Source: an uncultured bacterium (GTDB lineage: Bacteria > Patescibacteriota > Minisyncoccia > Phycocordibacterales > UBA9973). Taken from it: a stretch of 33,466 nt of DNA. A program made the translations under genes and the position numbers. Below, one piece after another: positions 2,712-30,416 of this stretch (its first letter is position 1; every line of letters starts with the position of its first letter). The stretch lies in the NCBI GenBank assembly GCA_903862375.1, contig CAIOXR010000054.1, forward strand, positions 1 through 33,466, written 5' to 3'. The notes below the pieces were generated by a model. That model saw only the letters and a list, made by a program, of their open reading frames with translations. It made no database searches and was not told where the DNA came from.

Positions 2712-3665
2712 TTAAAGTTTAATAAATTTCATCCCTATTTTAGTTCAACCTGTTTTATCTATCTCTACCTCTATTATCCAACCTCCTATAGTATTATCTA
2801 GGTTGAATCTTTTAGCAAGTAGATTCTCTTTTAAGAACGCTCAAGGTAAAAAACTATGTATCTTACGATAAAATACATATAGTGCGGTATGTCGGTGACC
2901 CGCAGCAAACACATTTGGTTGGTTCTTAGGATCTATATTCTCTAATAACTTCTGTATTTTATATGATTTTGCGTAACTCATCCCTCAACCACCATGATGT
3001 AGATTGATATCAACTCCATTAAGTTTAATCCTAGCATCATAGAACCCTAGATTGATTAAATCTTTACGTACTTCACTTATAGCTCTACTTATATCTCAAC
3101 CAGTCTTTTTTAGAAATGACTCATCATGATTTCCGCCAATAAAGTAAGTATCTAATCATATATTAGGATAACTTTTGATTATATCTTCTAGTTGTGAATC
3201 AAAACCTATTTTGTCTTGTTCATAAATCTGACCTGTATATACACTATCTCAGTCCACTATATCTCATCAGTGCATAAAACATTCTACTCAATCAGATTTC
3301 GCTATATCATAAAATTCTCAAAGTTCGTTTCTAGCACACTCTTTATTACCTAGATGAGTATCGCTAACTAATCAGAACTTTAAATATCATGGTTCTCATA
3401 TAACTTTTTCTATATTTTGTTTAGAATCTAATTTTAATCTATAAAGTATCTCTTTAAGTTGTTCTGGAGTATATTGTTGTATCAAATCTAATTTCTTTTT
3501 CTCTTGACTAGAAAAAACCTCTTTTATCTCCTCCTTTTTGTATTGATGTCTTGCTACACTAGTCTTTCCTACACCTAAGATTTTTGCTATCTCTCTCTGA
3601 CTTTTTCACTCAGATGATAACTGCTTTATCTCGTTAATCTTTCATTGTTCAAGAGGTTTTTGCAT
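2712..3665 (-). CDS. HTH domain fused to a calcineurin-like metallophosphoesterase
   Basis: 317 aa, frame checked. N-terminal HTH is SQREIAKILGVGKTSVARH. Metallophosphoesterase motifs are LVSDTHLG, MHGGDIVDG (3249-3275; three of its Gly are TGA), GGNHD, HHGG and GHRH. Confidence 0.9.
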
Positions 3666-4116: not shown

Positions 4117-4359
4117 TTATTTTACTACTTGTGATACCATCGCTCATATAACGGCAACAAGTATGATTCATATCAACCCTTTGATTACCCATTCTGTCCA
4201 TTTACTAGCATATTTTCTATCAAGTTTATCTAACAGGTTATCTAACTTAAAATTAGTTTCTTTCTGACATTCTTTAATTTCTGCGATGTCTTTACTCATC
4301 TGATTCTGTATTACTGATAAAGTTGTTAGCTTCTCTATTTGGATACAAGGTACTGTCAT
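4117..4359 (-). CDS. membrane-anchored coiled-coil protein (holin/spanin-like by position)
   Basis: 80 aa. Track ORF 4168..4359 extends through two TGA to TAA 4117, which creates a C-terminal TM helix: WVIKGLIGIILVAVIGAMVSQVVK. Confidence 0.7.
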
Positions 4360-4970: not shown

Positions 4971-6860
4971 TTATGCTGTTGTTGGTACTGTTGTTGCTCC
5001 TGTATCTGTTAATACAATAGCCCCATTTACTAGAGATATTTTCCAGTAATTAAGACTTGTTCAAGTAGATTTAAGATATAGATTTCAACCTGTAACTACC
5101 AATCAACCAGCACTATTTAATGCTAATATATCGGCATATCCTCCTCCATTATTATCGTAACCCCAATATAATGAACCTGAAGTCGTAGCTCCTGATGTAG
5201 GTCTTACTTCATTTTTAAAATTAATAGTATTATCCGCTGCAGTAACCGTTGTATTCCACGCTCTTGCTGTAAATATTTGAGCTGGAGAATATCTAACTGG
5301 GACACCTGCCGTAGAAGCCGTATTACTTCTTATTAAAACTCCTGTATATGACGTAGTTGTAAGTCCTGCTCTATCTGATACTATCGTTCCAATAGCATTT
5401 ATGCCGCCTCTACCTGATACCGCTCCATCAAGAGTTATGTCACCTTTTATAGTAACGCCACCGTTACTACCTAAGTTCAGTATTTCTACATATCCACCAC
5501 CGTTATTGTCATATTTGAAACTTAATGAACCAGATGTAGTAGTCCCTGAAACAGGTATTACCTCTTGTCTAAAGTTAATTGAATTATCCGCAGCTGTTGC
5601 AGTTGTATTCCAAGCGTGTGCTGTGAAATCTAAAGTTGGTGAATATCTTACTGGTACACCTGCCGTTGAAGCTGTCGTTTCTTGAGCCCAAAATCCCACT
5701 GTAGAAGTAGTAGTTAAATTAGACCTATTTGAATAAACTCCTTGTATTCCAGTTATTGCTCCTGAAGCACCCAATGCACCAGTAAAATATCCAGAACCTC
5801 CAGAAGATAAATTAAACGCATTTACATACGCTGCACCAGCTCTTGAGTGGTCTATATAAAGCATATTAGAACTTGTAGCCGTTCCACTTGTTGCCTGATT
5901 ATATATTCTCCATTCACTAGCTTGGTCTACTGTCGTATCGGTTGTCCATCTGTGACCTCTGAAGTGAAGTTCTGGGGAATATTGAACGGTATTTACAGCG
6001 TCCGAAGCTGTGTCGTTGGTAAGAAGTAATCCAGCTGTATTTGTTGTTTTTATGTTGTTGTTATATATGGTCAATAATCCAGCAGATGATAAAGACATCC
6101 AGTCTGCGTAGCCACCACCATTATTATCGTAAGCCCAGTATAAAGAACCTGAAGTAGTAGCTCCACTAACTGGTCTGACTTCTTGTATAAAGTTAATAGT
6201 ATTAGAAGCTGGTGTCGTTGTATTCCACGCCCTACCTGTAAACCTTAAAGAAGGAGAATACCTAACTGGTGTTCCTACTAATGCTGCAGTACTTGAATTA
6301 AGTACAACCCCATCTGATGAAGTCGTTGTTAAGTTCGCTTGGTTAGAATTAAGAACTCCAGGGATACTTACACTTGAGCTATCTACATTAAATACCGATG
6401 CTGACGCACCACCATCTACTGCTCTACGTATATAAAACGAACCACCAGTATTTACTAAAAAGTAATTTGAATAGTGGTCTGTTGATGTCCAGTAATGAGC
6501 CTTAAAATCTAAAGTTGGTGAATTTTGAGCTGTATTTACTGCATCTGAAGCTGTATCGTTTAGTAAAAGTAATCCATCAGTATAAGCTGCAAGCAATCAA
6601 GGTCTGCTTATCGTAGGTGCTCCGCCTGTGATGGTTTGGGGCGTAGACTGATTAAGTTTTAAGAATACTGTTGGTGTAGTACCTGAGTCAAGCCAAGCGT
6701 TTGTTCCTGTATCTCGTACCCAAGTGGTATCTGTTGACCCTACAGTAGCGAACCATCAAGCCTGTCCAACAGGATAAGCTGCTGCTAACGCCGCATACGT
6801 AGCAAAATACCCTTTATCGTTGTAACTTCATCCTCAAGCATTTCATTTGATAAATTGCAT
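4971..6860 (-). CDS. tail fibre / receptor-binding protein with internal repeats
   Basis: 629 aa. Track ORF 5103..6596 extends both ways through TGA (ATG 6860, TAA 4971). The unit ..VRYSP..F..RAWNTT....N.INF..EV.P.SG.TTSGSL..YDNNGGGY occurs three times. TASDAVNT.Q.SP.L.F..H.WT occurs twice. Confidence 0.9.
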
Positions 6861-8122: not shown

Positions 8123-10069
8123 TTATTGGTTAGAAGTTAAAAACTTTGTTGCTGCTAATGATGTTCATCTATTAATTGCATTTTTAGGTAAATATTTAAT
8201 TGCTTTCTCTATTACTTTAGATGAAATTCATATTATATTTGATAATTCTCATATTAGTCTAGGACTAGAAGCGATAAGTCAAAGTCGCATAGTTGGATGT
8301 AATAAACCTAATATTGCTAATCATCCTGCCTCGATCCTACCCATAAATCATTTAGGTAATAATGGATTAAGTGCCTGACCAGCTATCTGTCATTTAAAAT
8401 TCTTTGTTCAATATTTCTGTAATTCATCAGCAACACTTTGGGAATATTCCTTATTATCGTTTAATAGATTCATTATTTTAGTAATAGCCGTCTGTTTATT
8501 TGTTTTACTGACATTTCAATCTATAGACAGTGCTTGTTTTATTGATTGCTCTGTATCTTTGAATTTAGAATATTGTGTCATCATATCTGCATATTCTGGT
8601 ACGTTTTTTTTTATTTTATTACCTATCTTATTAGAAGCATCTAATATAATTGTATCACTAAGTGTATTTTCAGTTCATCATTTGTAAAGATTTGATACCC
8701 TTTGTTTTAATGTGTCGGCTCATATAGCACTTGTGTCGTTCCGTTTTCTTATCTCATCTACTAAATTTCTTATCTGGTCTTGATGTGTTTTCTGTGATAT
8801 GGTAGATTTAGAAAAGTCTAATGACTTTCAATTTAGAATATAATTTTCATTAGCATCTGTCATTATCTTTATTCATTTATTTTCTAGATTGGATAATATT
8901 TCTTGTCAAGCGGCTGGTAGGTCTATTTGTGCTGTAGATTGCTCCAATTTTTTAGCTCATTTTCCATATATGAGATTTTTCTGAGACTTCATATTCTCTA
9001 CCATATTCTGAGCATTTTCCAATGTAGATTCTATTGGTGTTCATCCTCTAAGAGCTTTCGTAAATTCTTTATTCCCAGCATTTTCTATTGCAGTTTCAAT
9101 AGTTTTTCAAGATGTGCCAGTTAATTTACCAACCACTCATTTTACTATTTTTCATCATAATTTTGTTACTAGCGGTAATGCTTGTCAAAGAGCAAGATTA
9201 AATATACCGAATGTTAGTGCCTCTTCTGGTGTAGTTAATTTATGCTCTGCTATAGCATCATATTTAGACGCATCTAACGTTCATTGCGCAATTGCTTTAG
9301 TTACTGCTTGAGTAACTTTCTGTATAATAGGTCTAGCCTCCTCATTATTAGATAATCGTTTAGATACCTTAGCAACAGTTGAACCTTCTTCTACTAGTTT
9401 ATCTATCATAGGTATTTTAGTTAATCATTCTACTACTCAAACTTCAGTTGGCGTGAACATCTGTATAACATCTGTTGCTGTTTTAGCAGCGTTCCAACCT
9501 ACTGTATTGGGATTACCTCAACTTATTGCCTGTGGTTTATACTGCATAGTCGTATCATTTTCTCAGAATAGTTTATTAGCTCATTTCTCCATAATCTGCA
9601 TAGGAGCAGACAATGAATCCAATATTCAACCTAATATATTGTGTCCCGCTGTTGGTTTTGCCGCTCATTTAGCTTGTTCTTCCTTTATTGAGTCAAATGC
9701 TCGTTGCTTAAAGTCATCCGATAGCTCTGGATATAATCTTGATATTTTAGTTAGATTATCATTGTATTTAGAATCTATAGCGAAATCCATAAGTGGCTTC
9801 CAGTCACTAACAGAAAGTTCTGGGAATTTATTTGTAAGTGTTGGTCAAGATTCATTTTTCATTACTAAATTTACCAGTGCTTGTTTCATAACTGGCTCTT
9901 TACTATTTATAGAGGAAACCCTACCAATAGTAACATTAGTATTTGGTATCTTTGTATTATAAATACCAGTCTTTACTGCAGCAGGCATAGCACTTACTTG
10001 TGTTCATTGTACCCCAGTTACTGCTGGTTTGGTAATTCAAGTTATACCAGTATTAAATCCTAAATCCAT
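8123..10069 (-). CDS. large internal-virion/ejection-type protein (function by position only)
   Basis: 648 aa. ATG 10069 to TAA 8123, every codon checked, many in-frame TGA. C-terminal hydrophobic segment is GGLAILGLLHPTMRLGLIASSP. The plus-strand track ORFs here are antisense artefacts. Confidence 0.85.
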
Positions 10070-12621: not shown

Positions 12622-13128
12622 TTATGATAGTTTGAATGCTTTAAGTTTTGTTGTAACATTTAGTGGTCATCAACTAGATTGATATACATCAACTGTAATA
12701 TAATCATTTTTATTTAGGTTGAATATTTCTGTAATATCTATTAACATAGTTACTGATGCTATTGGTAACACATATTTTATTTCTAATGGACTTCAATTCA
12801 AGTTTATTACAATAAATCTTATACCTGTTGCTGTAGCATCTGCTGCAAAAAATCAAATAACATTTAATTGATATGTTCAGTCTGTTGGTATCAAAACTTG
12901 TCAGGTTGTTTTTGCTCGATTATATTTACCAGTTACTGTATATACATATCAAGGTATAGTTGTTAGACTTGATGTTGCTATTGCTCTTGTACTATCTATT
13001 GCTATTACGCTATCTAAATATCTGTTATATGTCTGTGTTCTAGCGTTTATAGGTCTCTGTGTATATCAAGATTGTGTTGTTACTGGTTGTAATATAATAT
13101 CCTTTGGTGGTTCTGATTGGATTCCCAT
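12622..13128 (-). CDS. small beta-rich virion protein (C1q/TNF-like guess)
   Basis: 168 aa, MGIQSEPPKDIILQPVTTQSGYTQRP...TYQLNVIGFFAADATATGIRFIVINLNGSPLE...LNKNDYITVDVYQSS. Alternative in-frame ATGs at 13158 and 13161. Confidence 0.7.
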
Positions 13129-13147
13129 TAGGAATATAAGTAATAGA

Positions 13148-15034
13148 TTAAAAAACATCATTAACTGTATCTGTTTTAATAGATAAATCAAATACCTTAG
13201 GTGTCTTTGTACTTGAACTAGAATTTAGTACAACTTTGAATTGTACCTTATAGAACTTCATACCAGCTGCAGCAGTAATAAAATCTTGTGTCATTACATT
13301 ACTTCTACCATAAGCTGTTGTTGTACCTGTTCAAGTTATAGTCTTTAATAAAGTATAACTTCAATCATCTATCTTAATATATATCTGTATGTTAGTTACT
13401 GACCCTTGTAATTGATAACCTATCTGCATCTTCTCTAGTTTCTTTATAGTGCTGAGTTTATCTCGTACTATAGGATTATATTCTACGAAACCTGTAGTAG
13501 TATAACTAGGAGATGTTGTATTGTTTATATTCTGTAATGAATGTTTGTATACTCGCGGTTTAGTAGCTATTAATCAAGAAGAATAAAGTGCTAATCAATC
13601 TAATCACACCTGTGTTGCTGTTATATCTCATATAGTAGATAGATAATTTTTACTTAGACTTTCTGATAATCAAGGTAACTCGCTACCAAACGAATATAAT
13701 CAACTATTACTTACCATATAGAGTATATCTCTATTAATATCTACTGTCTGTCATCGTTGTGATGTATTACTTATAAATCACATCTTATCTGTAGCATACG
13801 AGTTTATATATGGACTTTGATATAGTTTTACTTTATCCCAACCACTAACTTTATATAACTCCCTATAATTATCTTTACCTGTTACTACATAATCAAATGT
13901 TCAATTATTTTTTACAGCTAATATATTTTTTCTTGGTCGTTCTATCATCTCATCTCGTTCTTTACTTACTCAATCTCGTAGATACTGTCTAGATCTTCAA
14001 TAAAAAGTATAAACACCAGTATCAACACTATATTTATTAGTATAAACATATATTCTTGTTCATATATTAGTCATTCAAATAATAATCTCATCTTTAGCTA
14101 ATATTAAACTATTAACAGATGTTCGTGTAGCTGAAGCAGATATATCTATCTGTGTTACTGTATTATTTCAAGCTACATATAAATAAGGATATAAATTTAT
14201 AAATGGATGATATGTAGAAATTTCCATATTATCTCAAGTTAGTGTTCCAGCCTCTATTTTTGTTGCTTGTACTGATACATCATAAAGAAATATACCTAAA
14301 TCAGCACTTGCAGTAAAAGCAAGTGTTTCGCTAGTCGATGCTGTTGTTCTCCAAAACGAATAAGTACCAGAAGCTGTTACCGTTCATAGTGTTGCTCATC
14401 ACATCTTAACAACTAGAGATGTTCAAGCAGAAAATAAACATCTGAATTGTACTCTATATTCTGTAGTATTTAATACTGTTAATACTTGTGATAAGTCAGA
14501 ACCAGTACCTGCTGTATGTATAGCTCTACCTCATGGTATACTCCAATCAGTACCTTTAGTCCAATCACTATCAGTAATAAACGTACCATTAGTAACAACT
14601 GTTGTTCATAATAATCATAAATCTGCTTTGGTTCAATTATAAACTCGTCTATATAATGCAGCTGTTCACATAACTACTCAATATAAGTTATTTCAACTTC
14701 TAAGTATTGTTGTATTAATATAAAAATAAGAACTATCATATAATGCTCATCAGTTATTAGTATAATTATAACTAGGTGTATAGATATTACCACTATAAGA
14801 TACAAAGTGTGCATAAGTAGCATTATTAATATACATAGCAGTAATTCGATCACTAGAACTATTACTTATCTGACATACAGAAGTAGATAAACTATCTAAA
14901 CAATAATATTTAGCACTCTCTCTAATATTAACTCATTCAGTATTATAAACACTACCTAAAAATCAGTATTCCTCATTAGAGATACCTCTAGTCACATCAC
15001 TTCGTGTTAAATTATTGTTTTGTTCTTTAGCCAT
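13148..15034 (-). CDS. large tail protein, nozzle/tubular-B-like by position
   Basis: 628 aa. ATG 15034 (the only possible start) to TAA 13148, every codon checked. Overlaps the upstream gene by 8 nt (ATGGCTAA). Confidence 0.85.
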
Positions 15035-15746
15035 AATATGAAAGATCTGGGATAAATGATTCTTCTCATAATATATTTTTATTCATCATCTGATTTATTA
15101 CTCTTAACTTTTCACTCTCATAAAACTGTTTAGCTTGTATTCTTCTATCTTCAAAGTTTACTCACATATTACCATAGAACCGATATTTAAGTCATTCTAC
15201 TATTATTGGATGTGCTGCTGGTGGTATTATTATCATACCCTCAACATCTTCAGTACTAGCTGATTTAGGTACTACTGCTTTAGGTCACATTATCTGTAAT
15301 CCACTAGTTATACTTGTATCAGGTGTAGGGAAGATAACTATACTATCACTACCTACTAAATAAGCTGTAGGTTGGTTTTTATCTGTTGTTGCAGCATAGA
15401 AATCAGGTAAGTTTAAATATCATTCAACATATTTAACTTGTACTGGTGTATAATAAGTATCTGTGCTTCTAAGTTTAACTCATATCTTTACTGCTTGATT
15501 TATTCAGAAAGTAGAAGTAATTAATGTTGAAGCTGCTATAGAAGCAGGTAATGTATATGTAGAAGTTCAAGCAACAAGATTAATATTAAATTGGTTCATC
15601 TTATCTCAAGGACTCTCATTACATATATCTCGCCAAAAATCTTCCTCCACTTGATTAAGAAACTGGAAAGATTGTGTAGCACTTACTATATCAGTAGTAC
15701 ATCCTGTTTGGTTTCTTGCTGTAGATATAATTAAACTAGGTATCAT
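15027..15746 (-). CDS. adaptor/tubular-A-like virion protein (by position)
   Basis: 239 aa, MIPSLIISTARNQTGCTTDIVSATQSFQFLNQVEEDFWRDI...STYTLPASI...IVIFPTPD... Frame checked. Confidence 0.8.
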
Positions 15747-15763: not shown

Positions 15764-16612
15764 TTAAATCATATTTAGTAGGAAATTTGCATTAGTTGTT
15801 GGTGCTACATATTCTACCATAGTTCGAGTACCGTCTGTTGTAAATGTATGTAATGTATAAGCACCAAATGTAGATACCGCTCAACCTGTACTAGATGTAC
15901 TTACTCAATCAGAACCATCAGTCTTATATGCTATAACTACTACTCAATCTCATCATTTAGCTCAAGTTACAGTTCAACTATTTCAACCTCATCATCCTCA
16001 TCCTCATCAAGTTCAATCTGTTCCTGCTGTACCATTAGTAGTATTACTTCATCAAGCTCATCATCAGTTAGCTGCTGTTCACGCAGTTCAAGCAAAATAT
16101 ACTCAACCTCAACCACCTCAAGCGAACCATCCACTTGCTCATACTCCTGTTCAAAATACTGCTGAATAATTTACTCCTGCTCATCAGTTACCTGCTGTTC
16201 AAGTAGATGCGTTTGTTCATACGCTTCACATACCTCCTCATCCTCATCAAGGGTATGGACTTGATGTATTATTTACTCATCAATTATATCATGGATTACT
16301 AGTACCTCATATCTTTCAAACTGTACTTCATTCTCAAGCTCATCATCAACATCAACCATTTCTACCATTATTATCATTAGCACCAGAACCACCTCAACCT
16401 AATCAAGTTAATGTGGAGAACGTAGTATTTAATCAATATCATCATGGTATTCAAGCTGGTGCTTTAGTTCAAGCTCATCAAGTTCATATATCTATTGCGT
16501 ATGCTTGTGCTGTTACTGTATGTGCTGCAGAATAAGTTGCTCATCAAGCTCCTCATCCTCATCAAGAACCTCATCATCATCATCATACTACTAATGCCTT
16601 AATCGCTGCCAT
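15764..16612 (-). CDS. glycine-rich domain protein (tail-fibre associated)
   Basis: 282 aa, MAAIKALVVGGGGGGSGGGGGAGGATYSAAH...GDGVVVIAYKTDG... There are 94 Gly, and 65 of them are encoded by TGA. Checked codon by codon. The gene is invisible to standard-code ORF finding. Confidence 0.9.
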
Positions 16613-16634: not shown

Positions 16635-17474
16635 CTAACAATTCTGTCAGATAATGAATCCATCATACGTATTTGTTCAAGTTCTTATAAACCCAAAAGT
16701 ATCTCTTTTGTTTAACGTAGCAGTTAAAGTTGGAGCACTTCCTCAAGCTCGTCTTACTGTATTAAATCGTGCTGCTATTGTACTTACTGTTCCACTACCC
16801 TGTAATATACTTACTATAAAGCATTGACTATTAGTGGCATTTGCTACTGTAAATGTTATCGCTGTTCCATCTGTGTGTCCTGTTACTATATGTACGTTAT
16901 TTACTGCACAATCTAATGCTACTGTCTGACTTCATGTTGCTGGTGTATATATTTTTCATACTTCATCTCTACCTGCACTAACAGTTTTGCCTGTCATAGT
17001 TCATCCAGCTTTTGGTAGTGCGTTATCTGCTGCTGTACCTTGTGTTGAAGTAGCGTACGCTGTAGCTGCTGTATATGCTGCTGTACCTAATGTTCATCAA
17101 GTTCAGATAGCTAATGTAGAACTATCAGTACCAGTAAATGTTAATGTATTATCACATTTTAATGTCTTACCTGCCGCTATATTTAATGTATTTGTTCAGT
17201 TAGCTGTAACTATTAACCCATTTGTTGTTGTAGGAGTTATAGCTCATAATGTAAGAGTTATCGCTGGTGTTGTTGTTGCTGTTGCTACACTTCCGCTTAC
17301 CCCGTTAGCTGTTGTTACCGATACGCTTGTTACTGTACCATTTCAACTTCATATCGCATTTGCTTTAACCTTTCTACTTGTTGCTACTCAACCAATAAAA
17401 TCAACAACAGGAATTACTGCATTAGCATCTAATATTAAACTTTCTGTTAGATCTATTATCTTAGTGTTAGCCAT
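16635..17474 (-). CDS. tail fibre protein
   Basis: 279 aa, frame checked. Contains ...GNGTVTSVSVTTANGVSGSVATATTTPAITLTLGAITP... and ...AADNALPKAGGTMTGK..., which are typical phage fibre motifs. Plus-strand track ORF 16987..17493 is antisense. Confidence 0.88.
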
Positions 17475-19309: not shown

Positions 19310-20518
19310 TTAGGCAACAACTCTAACTCTGATAGCTCTGTTTGCACCTTCTGCGAATGTCTTGATACCATATAATGTGTAGCAAAGATAGTCGTATCCA
19401 GTTTTAAGAGGTTCTTTGTTCTGTTGTACTGTAACGTCTGCTTGGATAACCAAATCAGTACATCAATATTGACCGAATCGGCAATCTGCAACTTGAGTAG
19501 ACCAAGTTCCATAAGATGTGCTTGCAGGTGTGTAAGAACAAGTTATGTTACCATAAGATGTGATGGTAAGAACGTGTGCAGCATAACTTGCTGATACTCC
19601 AGCATTTTTAAGAATATCTCTATTAGCTTGTGTGATGTCGATATAAGTATCTACTCCAGGTGTTCCTGTACCGTTGATAGCAGTAACCAAAGTAGCCATA
19701 CATAAATCTTCTGAGTTTTGGATAGAGAAGTGTCCTACTCCTACTGCAGTGTTATCAGCATCAGCTGTGAACGCTACACCAGCGATAGTAACAATATCTG
19801 TATCAACTAGGATAGCAGAAGTAGTGAACACGTTTGTATGTTTAACTGAATTAGATACAAATACGTTCATATTACCCCAAGTACCCATATAACCCATACC
19901 TTTAAGTGTTCCTTGTAACGCTGCATCTGCTTGGTTGAAACCATTAGCAAGATTAGTCTGTTGCATAAGAGCTTTAAGATTAGGTGTTACAACGAAGAAC
20001 CAAGGTGTAGTATCTTCGATGTTTGCTGTGTTAGCTTTAGCTTCAACAGTAGTGAAAAGTTTGAATACGTTAGATACAGATACTGTAACTGGGTTTCCAG
20101 ATGTTCCTCCGAAATCACCATCAGTTACTGTGTAAGTTGAGTTAGCTACTTCAGCCATGAATGCACCATCAATGTTTTTCTTCAAAGCATATCCGATACG
20201 ATCAATCATTTTATTAGCTACATCATATTTGTTCTGGATCTTATCAATGTTGTCGATATATACTGTAGCTTCTTTTGTTTGATCAACAGTAAGATATTCG
20301 TCAGTAATAGTTACATCTTGAGCAGTTACTGCTGTTCCTTTAGTATAAGAGTTTACTGAAACATCTGAGTGGTACGGTCTATGTACTTTAATACCGTTTG
20401 TTAAAGTTGCTCTTTCTTCCATATTAGAAATCTCTCTTGCTACTAATTTAGCTTTAAGAAGATTCTGCATCCTTGCTGATCGATACTCTGGAGATGCGGC
20501 GGTAAGTGAATTTGCCAT
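19310..20518 (-). CDS. major capsid protein (HK97-fold type)
   Basis: 402 aa. Track ORF 19463..20518 (351 aa) ends at the only TGA in the gene. Read-through adds 51 codons (the TGA glycine plus 50 aa, ...TLYGIKTFAEGANRAIRVRVVA) up to TAA 19310. It lies after a scaffold-like gene and before a terminator. Confidence 0.9.
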
Positions 20519-21595: not shown

Positions 21596-23518
21596 TTACA
21601 TTTGTTGGTCTCATCTGTTTGGTGGTGTTGCTGGTTTTTGCATTGCCTGACTTGTTGCTATATTTTGTGTGCTATTAGCTATCTCATTAAATGCTGTAGG
21701 AGCTACTGGTGCTTGTTGTGGTACTTTTATCAATGCCTCTTGTAACGCACCCAATACTACTTCTTTAGCCTTGGTGTTGTCTGCCTTTTGAAGGTATATC
21801 CAGAAAGTTGGTAGATATTCTGGTGGATTACTCATAATAGATTTAGGTATCTCGTTTAAGTTAACTATACTTAGGTAGTCCATCGCTTTACGTTCGTTAT
21901 TAGTTAATGGTACTAATACATTTACTTCGTTAGGTGTTTTACCGTTACATCTTAATAACATCCTTTTAGCTATAAGTTTACTTACTTTCGGAGTATCTGG
22001 ATCTTGTAAGAATAATGCTAGATATTTATCTCGGAATACTCTTTGTTTCTCGTTTTGACCTTCTACTTCACCTTTTGTACCAATAATGATGAACGGAATT
22101 TGACTAGTGAAGAAATCATCCTTCCCGATGGTCAAAGACTTAAATTCAAAGTTCGAGTTGATCGTGAGGTTTTTCTTGTCAGCTGAACTGAAATTCTCCT
22201 GATAACCCTTCCGTCGTTCATATCGGAACATCTTGTCGCCTCGAGAGTTAATTTTGTTGTTGAGCAGACCTATAATGTTCGAATTTGCCTGAGCTATTTG
22301 GCTCTCAGTAGCCGTAACATCTCTAGTAGCGATTACTCATTGCTGTTGATTATCTAAGTTTACATCAAATCTAGCTTCAGAATCGATAGCATTCATCATA
22401 CTAAATGTATCTGTTTTTATTTGACTTCTTGGAATTTCTATTCCCACATTACCTAGAGGCTCTTGTGTATCTACAAATATGTTCCTTCATTGTGTTGTGG
22501 GCTTTAATATATCGTTTTTATTTTTAATAAGTCTTGAATTCCAGATAAAATCTCATCCAAGTGCTTCTTTTTTAGCTTTAATTATATTTAGGTTAAATAG
22601 TATTGTTTTTGCTATCTGTTTATCATCTAATCTATCACATACTGATTCTCCCATAGCATCGTTTCTTCTAGGTTTCCAGTAGTTAAGTATTATAGGAAAA
22701 CTTATAAGATTAGAGTTTTCTTTTTCTTCTTTTAATACTGGTTTAATTTCAGAAACTCTTAATATCTTTGCTCTATCTGCTGTAGTTGTTACACAATACT
22801 TTTTACCATTAAAATTAGTAAAGTGATGATAAATATCTAAACTGAAGTTATGTTTAAGTCATTCTACTGCTGTAGGCATAACATAATTATACGCCATAGC
22901 GTAAGTAGACCGATTAAGTTTTGTTTCTGAACTGAATAAACTAGCTACTATCTCATCCAGTACCTTCTTATCGTATGTTAGGTCTGCTGCTAACTCTAAT
23001 ATAGTAGTAGTCAAATCAAATCAATGATATCTGTAGTTTTTACCATCAAATCTTCCTGTTTGGCTAGGAATAGGATCAGGAATCCAACTTAATGGGTTAA
23101 TTACAGCAAAAAGTGGCACTTTTCTAGTATCATCCCATCCATATCTATGTCTAATACTTACTCCAAAGAAATACCTATCTTGTTCTTTTTGGTAATATAG
23201 TTGCTGATAATCGTCTTCGTTATTATCAAATTCAGCCATAAAATTAAGATTATCAGCCTTCTCTTGACCTATCCATCCATCTTTAGGAGCGAAATTAACA
23301 GTTAATCCATCTGTGTACGAAGTAGCTATCATTGTATCTATTGCGTTAGCTATCATATTAATATTTATCTTATCAACACCTTTTTTCTGCTTATTCCGTC
23401 TTATAACTCTTTGTCTGTACTGGATTCTCTTAGGGTTGATGTAGTTCCACCCCTCTGAATATTCTCTAACTATCTGGGCGATTAATAACGCCTTATCTGC
23501 TTCTGAAAGTTCTACCAT
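21596..23518 (-). CDS. portal protein
   Basis: 640 aa. Joins same-frame track ORFs 23021..23518 and 21611..22231 through 6 TGA, every codon checked. It is the first large gene after TerL. Confidence 0.85.
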
Positions 23519-23628: not shown

Positions 23629-25020
23629 TTAATATAAAAATCAACTATAATCTACCTCAAATACTCATTCTAACGAACTATTAGTAGCTTCTAGATCTCT
23701 TACCACCCATCGCATCCTCATCATTATAGCATCAGCGAAGTCTGAACTCCTATTTATCCTTTTTCTTAATAACTCTTTAGATTCTATCATTATCTTACCT
23801 TCTTTATCAGTATTTTTAACATAAATATTCTCTAATTCTCTCATTAGGTTCTCTTTAGTACTTCATTCGTTTTCTATCCTTATTAATCTTTTTTCCATAA
23901 GTTCCTTTAATTTGAAATAGCATTGAGTTTTCATATTACCGAAGTTTTTGATAACAAAACCAGTCTTTTCTGAGTTATTCTTAAACGGTGTAGCTGAATT
24001 AACGAAATTAACACACCCCCTTAACATATCTGCTACCCCTCCTCCTACTCAATCACTATCTATCAAGATATTAGCTCTCCTTATCTCAAATTCTGTCTCT
24101 AACTCCTTTATCCTTTGTGCTACCTCTGTAGTAGTGTTCTGTGCATACGTGATAATCTTAAAACATTTAAGTCATTTCCATAGTGCTATAACGGTTTTAT
24201 CGTCTCAAAGTCTAGCTACATCACAAGTTAAATACGCAGTTGGGTCTGATTCTATGTTATTCCTAAATAAATCATATATCTCGTCATATCTAAACACTTT
24301 ACCTTCATCATCACTCCAATCAAAGTTACCATAAAGCAACCTCTGTCTAGTTATCTCGTCAGAGTTCTGTAGCTGTACTATATATTCAGGGTCGATATAC
24401 TTGTTATCAGTAGCTAAAGCTGGTATAAATTGTCTTATTTCTGATATTTTCTTCTCTTTATATGGTATCCAGAACCTTTCCTTTACGTGTCATTGGTCAG
24501 GGTTAAATGTCTCTAGTAATTTAGGGATAATACCATATTCTCTGTTCTTTTGTCTTGAAATACGTGTCTTTAGGATAGTAATAGCCTGTAAATCTACCTC
24601 GTTTGATTCGTCTATAAACCCTCAAGTCAACTCTAACGACCCAAATCTAGTGTATAATGGGTCTGATGGCTGCTGAGCACAATCTAATAGTAGAATCTCT
24701 GATTTATTAGGGAACTTAATAATATTATACTTCTTATCTAACTTTCACATAAGCTCTAACGGTATCTGATAATCCTCTCAGAACTTATAATATGAGTTTA
24801 ATGTCGTTTTCATTAAGTTAGAAAGCTCTCTACGTCACATAAAGTAACGCACTCAAGGATATTTATTAACCATCATCCATAACCAAGCTACTCAGATATA
24901 TGATTTACCTCATCATGCCCCTCATCCATACCCTACCTCTCTAGTTACGTTATCCATAAGATACTGCATAGCCATCGCTTGTTTCTCTGATGCTTTAAAC
25001 TCGAGTTTGAATTCTTGCAT
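23629..25020 (-). CDS. terL: terminase large subunit
   Basis: 463 aa, every codon checked. P-loop is VGYGGGAGGGKSY (24901-24927; three of its Gly are TGA). Walker B-like segment is LELTGGFIDESNEV. Plus-strand track ORFs 23948..24334 and 24401..24676 are antisense. Confidence 0.93.
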
Positions 25021-26118: not shown

Positions 26119-26308
26119 TTATTTGTTTAAGATATAAAACAACTCATTCATAATCTACCTTCCATCAATTCTTGCTAAACTCGTTCTTTATCGTCTTACG
26201 TTTCTTTCACGTCAAAAGCTCTAAGAGATTCAACATCTCTCGGCTTGTCCTCTTCGGCATAACCTTAAAGCTATACCCTCATCTATAATCTATCCCATTT
26301 ACTTCCAT
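26105..26308 (-). CDS. small basic protein, apparently leaderless first gene of the leftward operon
   Basis: 67 aa, MEVNGIDYRGGYSFKVMPKRTSREMLNLLELLTGKKRKTIKNEFSKNGWKVDYEG... The ATG lies 6 nt downstream of a TATAAT box. Frame checked. Confidence 0.5.
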
Positions 26309-26314
26309 AATGAC

Positions 26315-26342
26315 ATTATACCCCTCCTCCGTCTAATTGCAA
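26315..26342 (-). promoter_or_regulatory. sigma70-like leftward promoter
   Basis: The minus strand reads TTGCAA (26342-26337), a 16-nt spacer, then TATAAT (26320-26315), then gtcattATG. The spacer is the conserved G-rich box AGACGGAGGAGGGGT. Confidence 0.55.
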
Positions 26343-26535
26343 TAGATTTTTATATATTATTCGTTTAAGGATTCCAGCCCTTGTGTTGTGTCCCATTTAT
26401 ACCTATTTATTAGTATACTAGATATTAATATCTCCCGTATTGTGTCCCAAATGGTATATGCTTTGAATCCCGCGGGGACAGGTATAAAATTAAATTACCC
26501 CACGCCGATCGCTGCGGTACACCCCTCCTCCGTCT
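26320..26535. repeat. 15-nt direct repeat ACCCCTCCTCCGTCT (two copies)
   Basis: Perfect copies at 26320-26334 and 26521-26535, 201 nt apart. On the minus strand each lies between a -35-like hexamer (TTGCAA / GTGACA) and a -10-like position. Confidence 0.8.
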
Positions 26536-26561
26536 GACTGTCACAGGGTGACACAACACAA
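26381..26561. repeat. GC-rich palindrome-dense island bounded by a 12-bp perfect inverted repeat
   Basis: ttgtgttgtgtc (26381-26392) is the reverse complement of gacacaacacaa (26550-26561). Inside are TTGTGTCCCA twice (26386, 26440), the palindromes tagtatacta, gatattaatatc and cccgcggg, and tgtcac-agg-gtgaca. Confidence 0.75.
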
Positions 26562-26632
26562 CAATACAGTAACTAAGCACAAACAATCGGGGTATATGAC
26601 ATATTATATCACATATATTACAACTGTATACC

Positions 26633-26662
26633 TTGCACAATGTATATTGTGTAACGTATATT
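26633..26662 (+). promoter_or_regulatory. sigma70-like rightward promoter with overlapping operator-like palindromes
   Basis: TTGCAC (26633-26638), 18 nt, TATATT (26657-26662). Palindrome CACAATgtatATTGTG (26636-26651) lies in the spacer. AACGTAtatTACGTT (26653-26667) lies over the -10. The 14-mer ataccttgcacaat recurs at 26771-26784. Confidence 0.4.
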
Positions 26663-26878
26663 ACGTTGTTTGGCTTACTGTAGCGTGTAAGCGTGTGCGC
26701 GTTTGGGTGCTTTATGGAGGTTTTGGCGTTAATGGACTATTACGAATATGCGTTGTAACGTGTATTTATGATACCTTGCACAATACTATAATGTATAGTA
26801 TGTATATGTTCTTAATATGTATGTAAGTATCTTATAGTATTTATATGTTATTCTATTAGTCTTTTATTTGCTTATAGG

Positions 26879-26919
26879 TTTATATTATATTTATAGATTA
26901 TTTATATTATTTTTTATAT
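26879..26919. repeat. phased AT-rich iterons (TTTATAT/G)
   Basis: Copies start at 26879, 26890, 26901 and 26913 (11-12 bp phasing), plus one at 26840. They lie within a coding-free AT-rich stretch. Confidence 0.5.
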
Positions 26920-27069
26920 GCTTAGGTTTTATTTATTATTTATCTGTGATCTATTCTAATTTTATCAGATTTTATACTAATATATCATTTTAGGCGACTT
27001 ATTTATACAACTTCGATGATTAAATTTTGGCTTCTAAACTACATACTTTTTTTACAATGTCATTTACTC

Positions 27070-27128
27070 TTGATTTTTGATATATTATCAGTATACTTAC
27101 ACTGTCGCTAAGGAAACAATGTATTGTT
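27070..27128 (+). promoter_or_regulatory. candidate early promoter plus downstream operator-like palindrome
   Basis: TTGATT (27070-27075), 16 nt, TATACT (27092-27097). Palindrome AACAATgtATTGTT (27115-27128) shares ACAATGTAT with the 26636 site. The first early gene starts at 27196. Confidence 0.35.
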
Positions 27129-27195
27129 ATACATACTTTACTAGCTACACAATCTCTATCTATTCAATACCTTTTTATTCTTTATTCTTTACAAG

Positions 27196-29613: not shown

Positions 29614-30416
29614 TGGAAATAAATTATAAACAGACACCATTTACTCGAGGACTTAAAAAGATAGACAAGGCACTAGGAAAACCAGATTATCGTGAACTTA
29701 TAATATTTTTCTGATATTATTCATCTTGAAAGACTGAATTTACATATTTTATGGCTAGGAAAAATATAAAGAATTGACAGAAGGTATGTTATATGTCACT
29801 AGAACTTCCTGAATATGATATGAAATTAAGAATAGCAAGAAAAATGGCTTGAATTAAAAAATATGATTTCCAGACTTGAAATTATAATGAAACACAAAAA
29901 CAGATTATGGAAACTAATTTTAGAGAAATAGATAACCTGACGGATTTATATATTGTAAAACCAAAAACAAATGAAATATCAGAAATAGAAAATATAATAA
30001 GACAATATTATGATAAATGATGTAGATTATTTATTATAGATAATTTAGATAAAATAGGGTGAAATGAAATAGATAATATAAGATACCAACAAATATCATC
30101 AACACTTCAAGACTTAAAAAACGAAAACAATATATGTATATTTCTTATACATCACGCTAAAAAACCATGAAGTAAAGACAGACAATATGAACCAGCTGGT
30201 ATATCTTGAAGTAGATGAAGTCAGAAAATTATAGATAATGCTACACAATCAATAGAGATATGGAGAGATTTAGACCCAGAACAACTTGATGAAAAACACA
30301 AAGCAAAAGTATATCTTTATCAATATAAAGATACAATGGAAGGTAATAATAATGTAATAGATATTTATTTTAATAAATGAAATTATGAGGAAGAATACGA
30401 AAAACCAATCTTTTAA
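29613..30416 (+). CDS. DnaB C-terminal-like (RecA-fold) replicative helicase/ATPase
   Basis: 267 aa, frame checked. Walker A is GYYSSGKT (29712-29735), and both of its glycines are TGA. Walker B is LFIIDNLDKIG. Also present: ...HHAKKPGS... and AGISGSRGSQKIIDNA. The start overlaps the upstream stop (TAATG). Confidence 0.88.

What the first reader, a model, noticed from the sequence alone, without database searches (positions are those of the whole stretch)
15764..16612. Glycine-rich tail protein written largely in TGA codons: 65 of 94 glycines
Counted codon by codon, 65 TGA against 29 GGN encode the glycines of this 282-aa protein, with runs such as TGA TGA TGA TGA TGA GGT TCT TGA TGA GGA TGA GGA. 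Nearly a quarter of all its codons are a stop codon in the standard code, so the gene is invisible to ordinary ORF finders and untranslatable outside a code-25 cell. It is an extreme case of recoded-codon preference, the AT-rich way to write Gly. It contrasts sharply with the fibre core at 5103-6596 (0 of 53) and the capsid gene (1 of 28).
Basis: seen in the sequence. Interest (0 to 1): 0.7.

Follow-up and report, generated by a model that had tools for sequence, protein, structure and literature searches.

The report
Glycine-rich phage fibre protein spelled with TGA
This is an ordinary phage host-binding (tail-fibre type) glycine-rich protein whose only oddity is that the phage's altered genetic code writes most of its glycines as TGA, about as often as mutation bias alone predicts.

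Summary
Window 15764-16612 (minus strand) is an ATG..TAA gene of 282 codons with 65 TGA, 19 GGT and 10 GGA. TGA = Gly is shown independently by catalytic motifs in other genes, by orthologues, and by masked alignment to standard-code homologues.

The protein is a full-length member of Pfam Gly_rich_2 (PF21722), the polyglycine-rich fold seen in the Pam3 gp24 tail fibre and Bxb1 gp33. It is 55% identical to a standard-code phage protein. It lies in a variable fibre slot just upstream of the SU10-type adaptor gene.

The "extreme preference" reading fails. The TGA share (0.69) matches other early and tail genes (pooled 0.62, p = 0.30). It is slightly below the neutral expectation (0.76). TGA:GGA is 6.5:1, against T:G of 6.2:1 at four-fold sites. 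TGA placement within the gene is random.

The real deviants are the TGA-poor genes. The capsid keeps 0.03-0.12 in seven related phages despite synonymous turnover.

Code-25 phages dense in TGA are already published.

By-product: CGA/CGG behave as Trp, including codon 263 of this gene. That is the Absconditabacteria code, and I found no report of it in phages.

The parts
15764..16612 (-). The target gene. It encodes a 282-aa standalone Gly_rich_2 (polyglycine-rich) protein, with 65 TGA and 29 GGN glycine codons.
   Evidence: Searches give the counts. Pfam PF21722 scores 58 bits against a cutoff of 24.3, covering profile positions 16-226 of 226. PHROG 2295 matches at 7e-37. The protein is colinear with a standard-code phage homologue, 148/267 identical.
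16550..16585 (-). They encode the first conserved glycine-rich motif, 'VVGGGGGGSGGGGG'.
   Evidence: G11 is invariant, and G12, G13, G15 and G18-21 are nearly invariant, across 41 homologues.
16127..16129 (-). TGG codon 162, the Trp of the motif 'SGWFAGGGG' that also appears in homologues P0010 and P0044. The same gene therefore writes Trp as TGG and Gly as TGA.
   Evidence: P0010 'EGWFAGGGGG', P0044 'SGWFASGGGG'.
15824..15826 (-). CGA codon 263, most likely Trp rather than Arg, in 'HTFTTDGT[CGA]TMVEY'.
   Evidence: At this column 31 standard-code homologues have F 20, W 5, Y 4, I 2 and R 0. Six IMG/VR homologues read 'HTFTTSGTWTMVA'.
16635..17474 (-). Upstream neighbour g16635 (279 aa), a fibre-type protein. 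It carries the N-terminal segment 'MANTKIIDL...' that heads the slot gene in related phages. It is the probable carrier or partner of the glycine-rich protein.
   Evidence: Its N-terminal 38 aa match the N-terminus of the L004 slot gene. The same N-terminal segment is visible in the L014 and L015 slot proteins. It has weak PHROG tail-fibre and virion-structural hits.
15027..15746 (-). Downstream neighbour, the SU10-type adaptor protein. In SU10 the adaptor is the dock for the long tail fibres.
   Evidence: Pfam PF24175 scores 39 bits against a cutoff of 27. Orthologues occur in L003, L004, L014 and L015. The SU10 anatomy is from PMC9509320.
19310..20518 (-). Major capsid protein gene, used as the contrast case. 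It has 1 TGA and 27 GGN.
   Evidence: PHROG 267 major head protein, 1e-20. TGA:GGA is 1:13 although T:G at four-fold sites is 23.5:1. The TGA share stays at 0.03-0.12 in six relatives.
4971..6860 (-). It has 8 TGA and 64 GGN, and the core 5103-6596 has 1 and 53. It also avoids CGA/CGG (1 against 14 TGG).
   Evidence: It had no Pfam or PHROG hit of its own.
29712..29735 (+). Walker A motif of the DnaB-like helicase, GYYSSGKT. Both invariant glycines are TGA. This is independent proof that TGA = Gly.
   Evidence: Pfam DnaB_C scores 68 bits.
24901..24924 (-). Walker A motif of the terminase large subunit, GGAGGGKS. Three of its glycines are TGA, including the first motif glycine.
   Evidence: The terminase identification rests on weak, sub-threshold Terminase_6N and Terminase_6C hits, plus 70% identity to the syntenic gene in L004.

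Best explanation
The gene encodes a small, standalone polyglycine-rich protein of the Gly_rich_2 family.

Proposed structure and role (inferred). By homology it folds into a beta-sandwich plus a lattice of stacked glycine-rich extended strands. This is the architecture solved in the cyanophage Pam3 fibre gp24 and in Bxb1 gp33. The most likely function is as the host-contacting distal part of a tail fibre, carried by or acting with the fibre-type protein encoded immediately upstream (g16635). That fibre would dock on the SU10-type adaptor encoded immediately downstream.

Why so many TGAs. The phage is translated in a host that reads UGA as Gly, and apparently CGA/CGG as Trp, which is the Absconditabacteria code. 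In this AT-rich genome GGA and TGA differ by one G/T change and are synonymous. Mutation bias therefore drives Gly codons to about 60-75% TGA wherever nothing opposes it. This gene sits at that equilibrium. Because a third of its residues are Gly, a quarter of its codons end up as TGA. The TGA density is a by-product, not an adaptation.

Shown here: the counts, TGA = Gly, family membership, synteny, and the equilibrium arithmetic.

Inferred: the fold of this particular protein (modelled on a homologue), its place on the virion, receptor binding, and the identity of the host.
For: TGA = Gly.
- Both glycines of the helicase P-loop, three glycines of the TerL Walker A motif, and the phosphoesterase GDxxDG motif are TGA.
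- In orthologue alignments the window's TGA codons face TGA 37 times, GGN 36 times and Trp 0 times.
- In the target, TGA columns are 93% Gly (median) in 41 standard-code homologues, the same as GGN columns and against 3% for other columns. This holds when TGA is masked as X before aligning.
- 10 of the 16 invariant Gly columns are TGA.
- Pfam finds nothing if TGA is read as Trp or X.
- All 35 genes stop at TAA or TAG.

Family.
- PF21722 scores 58 bits.
- All 120 listed homologues carry PF21722.
- 14 standard-code phage loci share the C-terminal motif IAYKTDGSDG. One ~277-aa member is 55% identical to the target and colinear with it.

Fold.
- The homologue P0031 has the same architecture and models at pLDDT 92.7, pTM 0.89.
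- The best PDB matches are the Bxb1 tail tip 9d93 chains Q and the Pam3 fibre 7ypx (probability 1.0, E about 1e-3). The ALK/LTK glycine-rich domain matches weakly.
- 127 BFVD viral proteins match.
- The family profile hits the Pam3 fibre by sequence at E = 0.007.
- PMC9608196 describes Pam3 gp24 as a TNF-like domain plus a 39%-Gly domain used for host recognition. PMC13243192 places Bxb1 gp33 and Pam3 in the same PPII-bundle class as S16 gp38.

Placement.
- Homologues sit at the distal end of phage tail modules.
- In the four relatives whose contigs cover it at length (L004, L014, L015 and the P0123 contig), the slot upstream of the adaptor holds one 520-631 aa ORF. The three with DNA available share g16635's N-terminal segment and differ in their distal parts.
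- One of those distal parts is glycine-rich.

Neutrality.
- T:G at four-fold sites is 6.2:1 and the target's TGA:GGA is 6.5:1.
- The expected share is 0.76 and the observed share is 0.69.
- The target does not differ from the other high-TGA genes (p = 0.30).
- There is no glycine-run effect (0.71 vs 0.66). The runs test gives 42 observed against 41.2 expected. The share is even across thirds of the gene.
Against: - The fold rests on a homologue that is strongly similar only in the C-terminal 72 residues by BLAST, although the full-length family alignment is colinear.
- PDB fold matches have modest TM-scores (0.39-0.42).
- The gene lies between head-side genes and the adaptor, not among the distal tail genes. 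A head-fibre or decoration role is therefore not excluded.
- The neutral expectation uses third-position four-fold sites as a proxy for a first-position G/T change. It ignores context and strand effects.
- The target does exceed the window mean significantly (p = 2e-6). It also exceeds a GC-trend prediction (0.29), although that trend is driven by the TGA-avoiding genes.
- The host was not identified directly. Both genome scans were uninformative.
Confidence: 0.8

Rival explanations
1. The TGA richness is adaptive. One version: the phage loads its host-recognition gene with TGA as a code lock, so that it can only be made in a UGA = Gly host. Another version: TGA acts as a translational throttle that sets a low copy number for the fibre tip relative to the capsid.
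For: The target has the highest TGA share among genes with many glycines, and it exceeds the window mean (p = 2e-6). Capsid, portal and other head genes are TGA-poor, so TGA share does differ between head genes and the tail and early genes. Stop-codon recoding as a regulator of late genes has been proposed for other phages (cited in PMC10746230).
Against: Early replication genes are just as TGA-rich (41 of 65), including the helicase P-loop. TGA therefore does not mark late or structural genes. The share is at or below the neutral expectation of 0.76. TGA placement is random within the gene. Nearly all genes in the window already contain TGA, so the phage is locked to its host with or without this one.
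Confidence: 0.1
2. TGA is read as Trp (table 4), as some public gene calls of this phage clade assume, so the protein would be Trp-rich rather than Gly-rich.
For: Database portal proteins of this clade carry W where the window has TGA, for example 'ALGWDF'. Table 4 also opens the reading frames.
Against: TGA occupies invariant P-loop glycines. It aligns to GGN 36 times and to TGG 0 times in orthologues. Masked TGA columns are 93% Gly and 0.04% Trp in homologues. There is no Pfam hit with W. The gene's own conserved Trp is written TGG.
Confidence: 0.01
3. It is not a functional gene. It could be an assembly or frame artefact, a decaying pseudogene, or a TCA/TGA-rich simple repeat that only looks coding.
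For: It has low-complexity composition and contains a short TGA microsatellite (five in a row).
Against: The identical 849 nt occur on a 29.4 kb contig from another assembly. The gene is full-length and colinear with the family, with no frame break. All 16 invariant Gly columns are kept. TGA is in frame 65 times and out of frame 1 and 3 times. Spacing to both neighbours is tight: 22 nt upstream and 17 nt downstream. There is no long ORF on the opposite strand.
Confidence: 0.02
4. The protein is a capsid decoration or head fibre rather than a tail or host-binding protein.
For: The gene order is MCP, three small or medium genes, g16635, the target, then the adaptor. The target therefore sits at the head/tail boundary. 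None of the intervening genes has a known function.
Against: Family members sit at the distal end of tail modules. The solved relatives are tail fibre and tail-tip proteins. The slot genes in relatives look like fibres, with a shared N-terminal segment and swappable distal parts. The adjacent adaptor family carries the fibre dock in SU10.
Confidence: 0.12

Closest known systems
Pfam PF21722 Gly_rich_2: standalone ~280-300 aa 'glycine-rich domain-containing proteins' of uncultured tailed phages (e.g. IMGVR_UViG_3300025087_000313)
   Same: Same length, same domain from the first residue, and the same C-terminal block IAYKTDGSDGVSTSSTGG..YT.HTFT..GTWTMV. Identity is 55%, and glycine content is similar at 33-38%.
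   Different: Every relative found writes Gly only as GGN. This one uses TGA for 69% of its glycines and CGA for one Trp. No TGA-written orthologue was found elsewhere, apart from the identical contig.
Cyanophage Pam3 tail fibre gp24 (PDB 7YFW, 7YPX)
   Same: It has a glycine-rich domain (39% Gly) of stacked glycine-rich motifs on a beta-sandwich, and it ends in the same G.G(I/V)(I/V)I..Y strand. It matches the homologue model by fold (E = 1.6e-3, probability 1.0) and the family profile by sequence (E = 0.007).
   Different: Pam3 gp24 has an N-terminal alpha-helical domain that docks to a myophage baseplate, and it needs the chaperone gp25. The target starts directly with the glycine-rich domain and sits in a podophage-like genome. 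Similarity is remote (TM 0.42).
Mycobacteriophage Bxb1 gp33 'tail wing brush' (PDB 9D93 chains Q) and Salmonella phage S16 gp38 adhesin (PDB 6F45)
   Same: Both are small polyglycine-rich (PPII-bundle) proteins on phage tail structures. Bxb1 gp33 is about 230 aa, close in size to the modelled homologue, and is its top PDB fold match. The S16 parallel, a gp38 adhesin that caps the gp37 fibre, would match the arrangement proposed here for g16635 plus the target. That arrangement is from my own knowledge plus the description in PMC9608196.
   Different: No sequence-level relation was detected. TM-scores are about 0.39. S16 gp38 itself did not appear among the fold hits.
Code-25 phages of Absconditabacteria and Gracilibacteria (Liu et al. 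2023, mBio, PMC10746230)
   Same: These are phage genomes dense with in-frame TGA that share their host's UGA = Gly code and rely on host decoding. In the window, ORF coverage is 21% under table 11 and 76% under table 25.
   Different: That paper reports coding density, not per-gene TGA share, and does not consider CGA/CGG. The window adds a per-gene picture (capsid 0.04, this gene 0.69) and evidence for CGA/CGG = Trp.

Membership tests
Pfam PF21722 Gly_rich_2 | Whole-protein score above the curated gathering threshold, with near-complete profile coverage | tested here: met
   58 bits against a cutoff of 24.3; residues 3-230 cover profile positions 16-226 of 226. This holds only when TGA is read as Gly; there is no hit with W or X.
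Pfam PF21722 Gly_rich_2 | Conservation of the family's invariant glycine columns and the terminal G.GG.G(I/V)V(I/V)I.Y strand | tested here: met
   All 16 invariant and about 40 nearly invariant columns are kept. TGA-masked realignment still places TGA opposite 92.5% Gly (median). 'GGDGVVVIAY' is present.
Polyglycine-rich (PGII/PPII-bundle) phage fibre domains (Pam3 gp24, Bxb1 gp33, S16 gp38) | Three-dimensional lattice of stacked glycine-rich extended strands on a beta-sandwich | tested here: inconclusive
   Only a homologue (P0031) could be modelled (pLDDT 92.7). It matches the Bxb1 9d93 Q chains and Pam3 7ypx at probability 1.0 but TM 0.39-0.42.
Polyglycine-rich (PGII/PPII-bundle) phage fibre domains (Pam3 gp24, Bxb1 gp33, S16 gp38) | Physical location on the tail or fibre tip, and receptor binding | not testable with these tools
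   Only gene neighbourhood is available.
Genetic code 25 (UGA = Gly; Gracilibacteria/Absconditabacteria and their phages) | In-frame TGA at conserved glycine positions, and TGA never used as a stop | tested here: met
   P-loop glycines are TGA. TGA aligns to TGA or GGN 73 times out of 97 and to Trp 0 times. Stops are TAA 27, TAG 8, TGA 0.
Genetic code 25 (UGA = Gly; Gracilibacteria/Absconditabacteria and their phages) | Decoding apparatus: a tRNA-Gly(UCA) and absence of release factor 2 | tested here: inconclusive
   There is no tRNA in the window and no tRNA(UCA) in the six relative loci scanned. Decoding must therefore come from the host, whose genome was not found. About 6.5 kb of the ~40 kb genome lies outside the window.
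Absconditabacteria extended code (CGA and CGG = Trp; Shulgina and Eddy 2021) | CGA/CGG at conserved Trp or aromatic positions and not at Arg positions | tested here: met
   Window CGA/CGG face TGG 30, CGA 15, CGG 8 and AGA/AGG/CGT/CGC 0. AGA/AGG never face TGG, CGA or CGG. MCP codon 13 faces TGG in five distant homologues, four of which have no in-frame TGA in the MCP frame. Target codon 263 faces F/W/Y in homologues, and 'GTWTMV' in six loci. One site, adaptor codon 39, faces Lys in three relatives.
SU10-like (Kuravirus-type) podophage virion module | Portal, major capsid, adaptor and nozzle genes of the SU10 families in the SU10 order | tested here: inconclusive
   SU10_adaptor is above threshold (39 bits against 27). 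SU10_portal is below threshold (18 bits against 30). The 628-aa gene after the adaptor has no nozzle-family hit. Gene order is broadly similar to SU10, but five genes lie between the MCP and the adaptor, whereas by SU10 gene numbering only gp10 lies between gp9 and gp11.

The most novel reading that the evidence does not exclude
The window comes from a phage clade that follows its host through three codon reassignments, not one: UGA = Gly plus CGA and CGG = Trp. If so, even a 'table 25' translation of this gene is wrong at residue 263. The gene-to-gene spread of TGA use would then be a natural readout of how well a reassigned codon is tolerated. The capsid stays at 0.03-0.12 in seven phages, while this glycine-lattice protein sits at the neutral 0.69. 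This would be the first phage-level evidence for the Arg-to-Trp reassignments. It would also tie the clade to Absconditabacteria hosts.
Probability: 0.65. Interest if true: 0.6.

Novelty: new member of a known kind. Interest (0 to 1): 0.3.

Why it matters
For the finding as stated, the value is mostly practical and illustrative.

- **Annotation.** The gene shows how badly standard pipelines fail on this clade. The gene vanishes under table 11. Under table 4, which public gene calls of the clade's portal genes appear to use, it would become a protein with 65 tryptophans. Under table 25 one residue is still probably wrong.
- **Decoding fidelity.** In solved relatives the fold packs glycine-rich strands tightly. 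This gene is therefore indirect evidence that UGA = Gly decoding in the host is efficient and accurate enough to make it.
- **Wider interest.** This lies in what the comparison exposed. The capsid gene shows conserved selection against a reassigned codon. CGA/CGG = Trp appears to extend to phages, and both of these are testable.

Tried and rejected
- **Structure of the target.** I used the homologue P0031 instead.
- **NCBIfam.** No hit.
- **Direct sequence search of the PDB.** Nothing.
- **tblastn against GenBank phages.** Nothing.
- **IMG/VR scans.** Scans with the target and with the adaptor found no relatives.
- **Genome-collection scans.** The MCP found nothing. A portal alignment found only a 29% hit on a contig binned as Woesearchaeota. 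Host lineage could therefore not be read from a prophage.
- **Campbell et al. 2013.** The paper is not held, so I have no host-side figure for TGA share.
- **Exact look-up of the target.** Neither the Gly-translated nor the Trp-translated protein is in the public collection.
- **Glycine-run hypothesis.** I tested whether TGA is favoured inside glycine runs, for example to avoid G-rich or Shine-Dalgarno-like DNA. It is rejected: 0.71 against 0.66 in the target and 0.41 against 0.43 elsewhere, and TGA GGA itself creates GAGG.
- **Positional gradient or clustering of TGA.** None found.
- **Capsid recently imported from a standard-code phage.** Rejected. The low TGA share is conserved in six relatives, while about half of the conserved Gly codons and 35-52% of four-fold sites differ. 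The capsid also uses CGA for Trp.
- **L014's glycine-rich fibre end as a Gly_rich_2 member.** It does not reach the Pfam threshold.
- **tRNA(CCG) in relative L015.** Its identity elements (C20, U73) fit neither the Arg rule nor the Trp rule.
Full report
**1. The observation**

The gene lies on the minus strand of 15764-16612. It starts with ATG, ends with TAA, and has 282 sense codons: 65 TGA, 19 GGT, 10 GGA and no GGC or GGG. TGA occurs 65 times in frame and only 1 and 3 times in the other two frames. Under the standard code the longest in-frame open stretch is 38 codons, and no table-11 ORF overlapping the region exceeds 55 aa. Window-wide, ORFs of at least 100 aa cover 21% under table 11 and 76% under table 25. 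All 35 gene models stop at TAA (27) or TAG (8). An identical copy of the 849 nt sits on a 29.4 kb contig of another assembly (L018), which is shorter than the window and therefore a different record.

**2. TGA is glycine**

Three lines of evidence are independent of this gene's composition.

- *Catalytic motifs.* Both invariant glycines of the DnaB-like helicase P-loop (gYYSSgKT, 29712-29735) are TGA. So are three glycines of the terminase Walker A motif and the two glycines of the phosphoesterase gDIVDgD motif.
- *Orthologues.* In alignments to orthologues from related phages, the window's TGA codons face TGA 37 times, GGN 36 times, other residues 24 times and Trp 0 times.
- *The target itself.* Columns holding TGA are 93% Gly (median) in 41 standard-code homologues. 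That matches GGN columns and compares with 3% elsewhere. The result is unchanged when TGA is masked as X before aligning, which removes circularity.

Ten of the 16 invariant glycine columns are TGA. The gene's own conserved Trp (SGWFA) is written TGG. Reading TGA as Trp or X abolishes the Pfam match.

**3. What the protein is**

It matches Pfam PF21722 (Gly_rich_2) at 58 bits against a cutoff of 24.3, over almost the whole profile. It also matches PHROG 2295, of unknown function. All 120 listed database homologues carry PF21722.

A degenerate DNA search for the C-terminal motif IAYKTDGSDG found 14 IMG/VR phage loci. All are in the standard code, and many are standalone proteins of about 280-300 aa with 33-38% Gly. 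One of them is colinear with the target and 55% identical (148/267). The protein is therefore an ordinary member of a widespread phage family.

The structure tool would not accept the table-25 translation. I modelled P0031 instead, a 235-aa standard-code homologue with the same architecture. The model has pLDDT 92.7 and pTM 0.89.

- The best PDB matches are the mycobacteriophage Bxb1 tail tip (9d93 chains Q) and the cyanophage Pam3 fibre (7ypx). Both have probability 1.0 but modest TM-scores of 0.39-0.42. The ALK/LTK glycine-rich domain matches weakly.
- 127 BFVD viral proteins match, most of them named 'glycine-rich domain-containing protein'.
- The family profile also reaches the Pam3 fibre by sequence (E = 0.007), ending in the same G.G(I/V)(I/V)I..Y strand.

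Pam3 gp24 is described as a TNF-like sandwich plus a 39%-Gly lattice of glycine-rich motifs. Its variable distal tips are proposed to bind the receptor, and it is likened to S16 gp38 and the ALK GRD (PMC9608196). A 2026 paper places Bxb1 gp33 (the 'tail wing brush') and Pam3 in the same PPII-bundle class (PMC13243192).

**4. Where it sits**

The window is a podophage-like genome. On the minus strand it carries terminase, portal (a weak SU10_portal hit), major capsid protein, several small genes, g16635, the target, an SU10-type adaptor (39 bits), a 628-aa protein and large putative ejection proteins. Replication genes lie on the plus strand.

Portal relatives at 64-81% identity are numerous and sit on contigs of 35-42 kb. 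In relatives, the position just upstream of the adaptor varies.

- L003 has nothing there.
- L004 and L015 have a 520-aa ORF with what looks like a beta-helix-like distal part. This is an impression from the sequence and was not tested.
- L014 has a 631-aa ORF whose last 260 residues are 33% Gly.

These slot proteins share an N-terminal segment (MAN.(K/R)IS(E/D)...) with g16635. The slot therefore behaves like a fibre locus with a constant attachment end and swappable distal ends. In the window, the glycine-rich module is a separate ORF 22 nt downstream of g16635.

Elsewhere, Gly_rich_2 homologues sit at the far end of tail modules, next to GpJ-like, collagen-like or tape-measure genes and before the lysis genes. 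In SU10 the adaptor is the dock for the long fibres (PMC9509320). My best reading is a two-piece fibre, with g16635 as carrier and the target as the distal, host-contacting piece. This is inferred from neighbourhood and homology, not shown. A head-fibre role is the main alternative.

**5. Is the TGA share exceptional?**

The per-gene TGA/(TGA+GGN) is 0.69 for the target and 0.43 for the rest of the window pooled (Fisher p = 2e-6). But the distribution has two groups.

| Group | Genes | TGA share |
|---|---|---|
| Early genes (plus strand) | pooled | 41 of 65 |
| Tail and other late genes | 8123-10069 | 0.61 |
| | 13148-15034 | 0.60 |
| | 12622-13191 | 0.73 |
| | adaptor | 0.60 |
| High group pooled | | 0.62 |
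| TGA-poor genes | capsid | 0.04 |
| | fibre 4971-6860 | 0.11 |
| | portal | 0.21 |

Against the high group the target does not differ (p = 0.30).

GGA and TGA differ by one G/T change. The T:G ratio at four-fold degenerate sites is 6.2:1 window-wide, and the target's TGA:GGA ratio is 6.5:1. Gene 8123-10069 shows 6.6:1. From four-fold base frequencies the neutral expectation for the TGA share is 0.76, and the target's 0.69 is just below it.

Inside the gene the choice between TGA and GGN is positionally random. There is no glycine-run effect (0.71 vs 0.66). The runs test gives 42 observed against 41.2 expected. The share is 25/34, 26/37 and 14/23 across thirds of the gene.

So the gene is at compositional equilibrium. 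Its striking TGA density follows from being one-third glycine. 'Extreme preference' is not supported.

**6. The genes that do deviate**

The capsid gene has a stronger AT bias at four-fold sites (T:G of 23.5:1) yet a TGA:GGA ratio of 1:13. Its TGA share is 0.03-0.12 in six relatives. Meanwhile about half of the conserved glycine codons and 35-52% of four-fold sites differ between them. That pattern points to selection against TGA in the capsid gene rather than recent import.

Plausible reasons are speed or accuracy of UGA decoding in the most abundantly made protein. Low-level misreading of UGA has been seen by proteomics in a code-25 bacterium (PMC4032931). U34 wobble ambiguity between UGA and UGG has also been pointed out (PMC8629427). 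These reasons are inference.

The fibre gene 4971-6860 avoids both TGA (8 of 72) and CGA/CGG (1 against 14 TGG). That is more suggestive of import from a standard-code source.

**7. By-product: CGA and CGG**

Prompted by Shulgina and Eddy's prediction for Absconditabacteria, I checked CGA and CGG.

- The window has 51 CGA, 9 CGG and 60 TGG codons.
- In orthologue alignments CGA/CGG face TGG 30, CGA 15, CGG 8, and never AGA, AGG, CGT or CGC.
- AGA/AGG face AGA, AGG, AAA and AAG, and never TGG, CGA or CGG.
- Capsid codon 13 (CGA) faces TGG in five distant homologues, four of which have no in-frame TGA in the MCP frame.
- In the target, codon 263 (CGA) faces F 20, W 5, Y 4, I 2 and R 0 in standard-code homologues. 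Six IMG/VR loci read HTFTTSGTWTMVA where the target has HTFTTDGT[CGA]TMVEY.
- One site, adaptor codon 39, faces Lys in three relatives. The signal is therefore strong but not unanimous.

No paper in the held library reports this reassignment in phages. It points to an Absconditabacteria host. The ENA record names BUCK21-1 and TONG22-1 hint at buccal and tongue samples, but that is only a guess from the labels.

**8. Comparison with what is known, and verdict**

Phages of Absconditabacteria and Gracilibacteria that share code 25 and are 'dense with in-frame TGA' are published (PMC10746230). The protein family, its fold class and its association with phage tails are also known.

The finding is a correct and vivid observation of a new member of known kinds. 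Its interpretation as an outlier in codon preference does not hold. Interest for the finding as stated is low to moderate. The conserved TGA avoidance in the capsid gene, and the apparent CGA/CGG = Trp usage by a phage, are the parts that merit follow-up.

Noticed in passing
window-wide; e.g. 15824-15826 (target codon 263), 20480-20482 (MCP codon 13), portal codons 41, 203, 426, 432, 435, 436, 496 in 21596-23518: CGA (51) and CGG (9) codons behave as Trp, not Arg. In relatives they face TGG 30, CGA 15, CGG 8 and never AGA, AGG or CGT. They face W or F/Y in standard-code homologues. This matches the code predicted for Absconditabacteria. I found no report of it for phages in the held library.
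   Followed up: yes
19310-20518 (MCP); also L003, L004, L005, L014, L015, L016: The capsid gene avoids TGA (1 of 28) although its four-fold sites are the most AT-biased in the window. The avoidance is conserved in six relatives despite heavy synonymous turnover. This implies selection against the reassigned codon in the most highly expressed gene.
   Followed up: yes
It avoids both reassigned codons (TGA 8 of 72; CGA/CGG 1 against TGG 14) and has higher GC. It may have been imported from a standard-code source. It had no Pfam or PHROG hit.
   Followed up: partly
portal 21596-23518 versus database proteins P0122-P0230: Public protein predictions for this phage clade show W where the genomes have TGA (consensus 'ALGWDF', 'NSWWDK'). 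They were therefore called with table 4, the wrong amino acid. The window's own portal is stored as a 586-aa product rather than 640 aa.
   Followed up: partly
L002 / L009 (IMGVR_UViG_3300002026_000970, JFJP01046249.1): A relative with 43% MCP identity has no in-frame TGA and uses CGT/CGA as ordinary Arg codons. The capsid lineage therefore spans standard-code and recoded phages.
   Followed up: partly
L015 674-746; L004 4296-4380: Two relatives carry tRNA genes: tRNA(CCG), which reads CGG, in L015, and tRNA-Tyr(GTA) in L004. The tRNA(CCG) has C20 and U73, so it lacks the main Arg identity element but does not fit the Trp rule either.
   Followed up: partly
L001 4310-6790: The terminase large subunit of this relative is 826 aa. 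It has an insertion of about 350 aa between the parts matching window TerL residues 1-326 and 322-463. The insertion could be an intein or a homing-endonuclease-type element.
   Followed up: no
L016 488-1450: A portal relative at 67% identity carries a tyrosine integrase, so part of this clade is probably temperate. No integrase was seen in the window.
   Followed up: no
26119-27195: A gap of about 1.1 kb without long ORFs separates the leftward late operon from the rightward early genes. AT skew changes sign around here. It is a likely site for divergent promoters or a replication origin.
   Followed up: no
2712-3665: A calcineurin-like phosphoesterase (Metallophos, 40 bits) with an N-terminal helix-turn-helix sits at the end of the late operon, next to a possible holin (4117-4359, one predicted hydrophobic helix seen by eye).
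   Followed up: no
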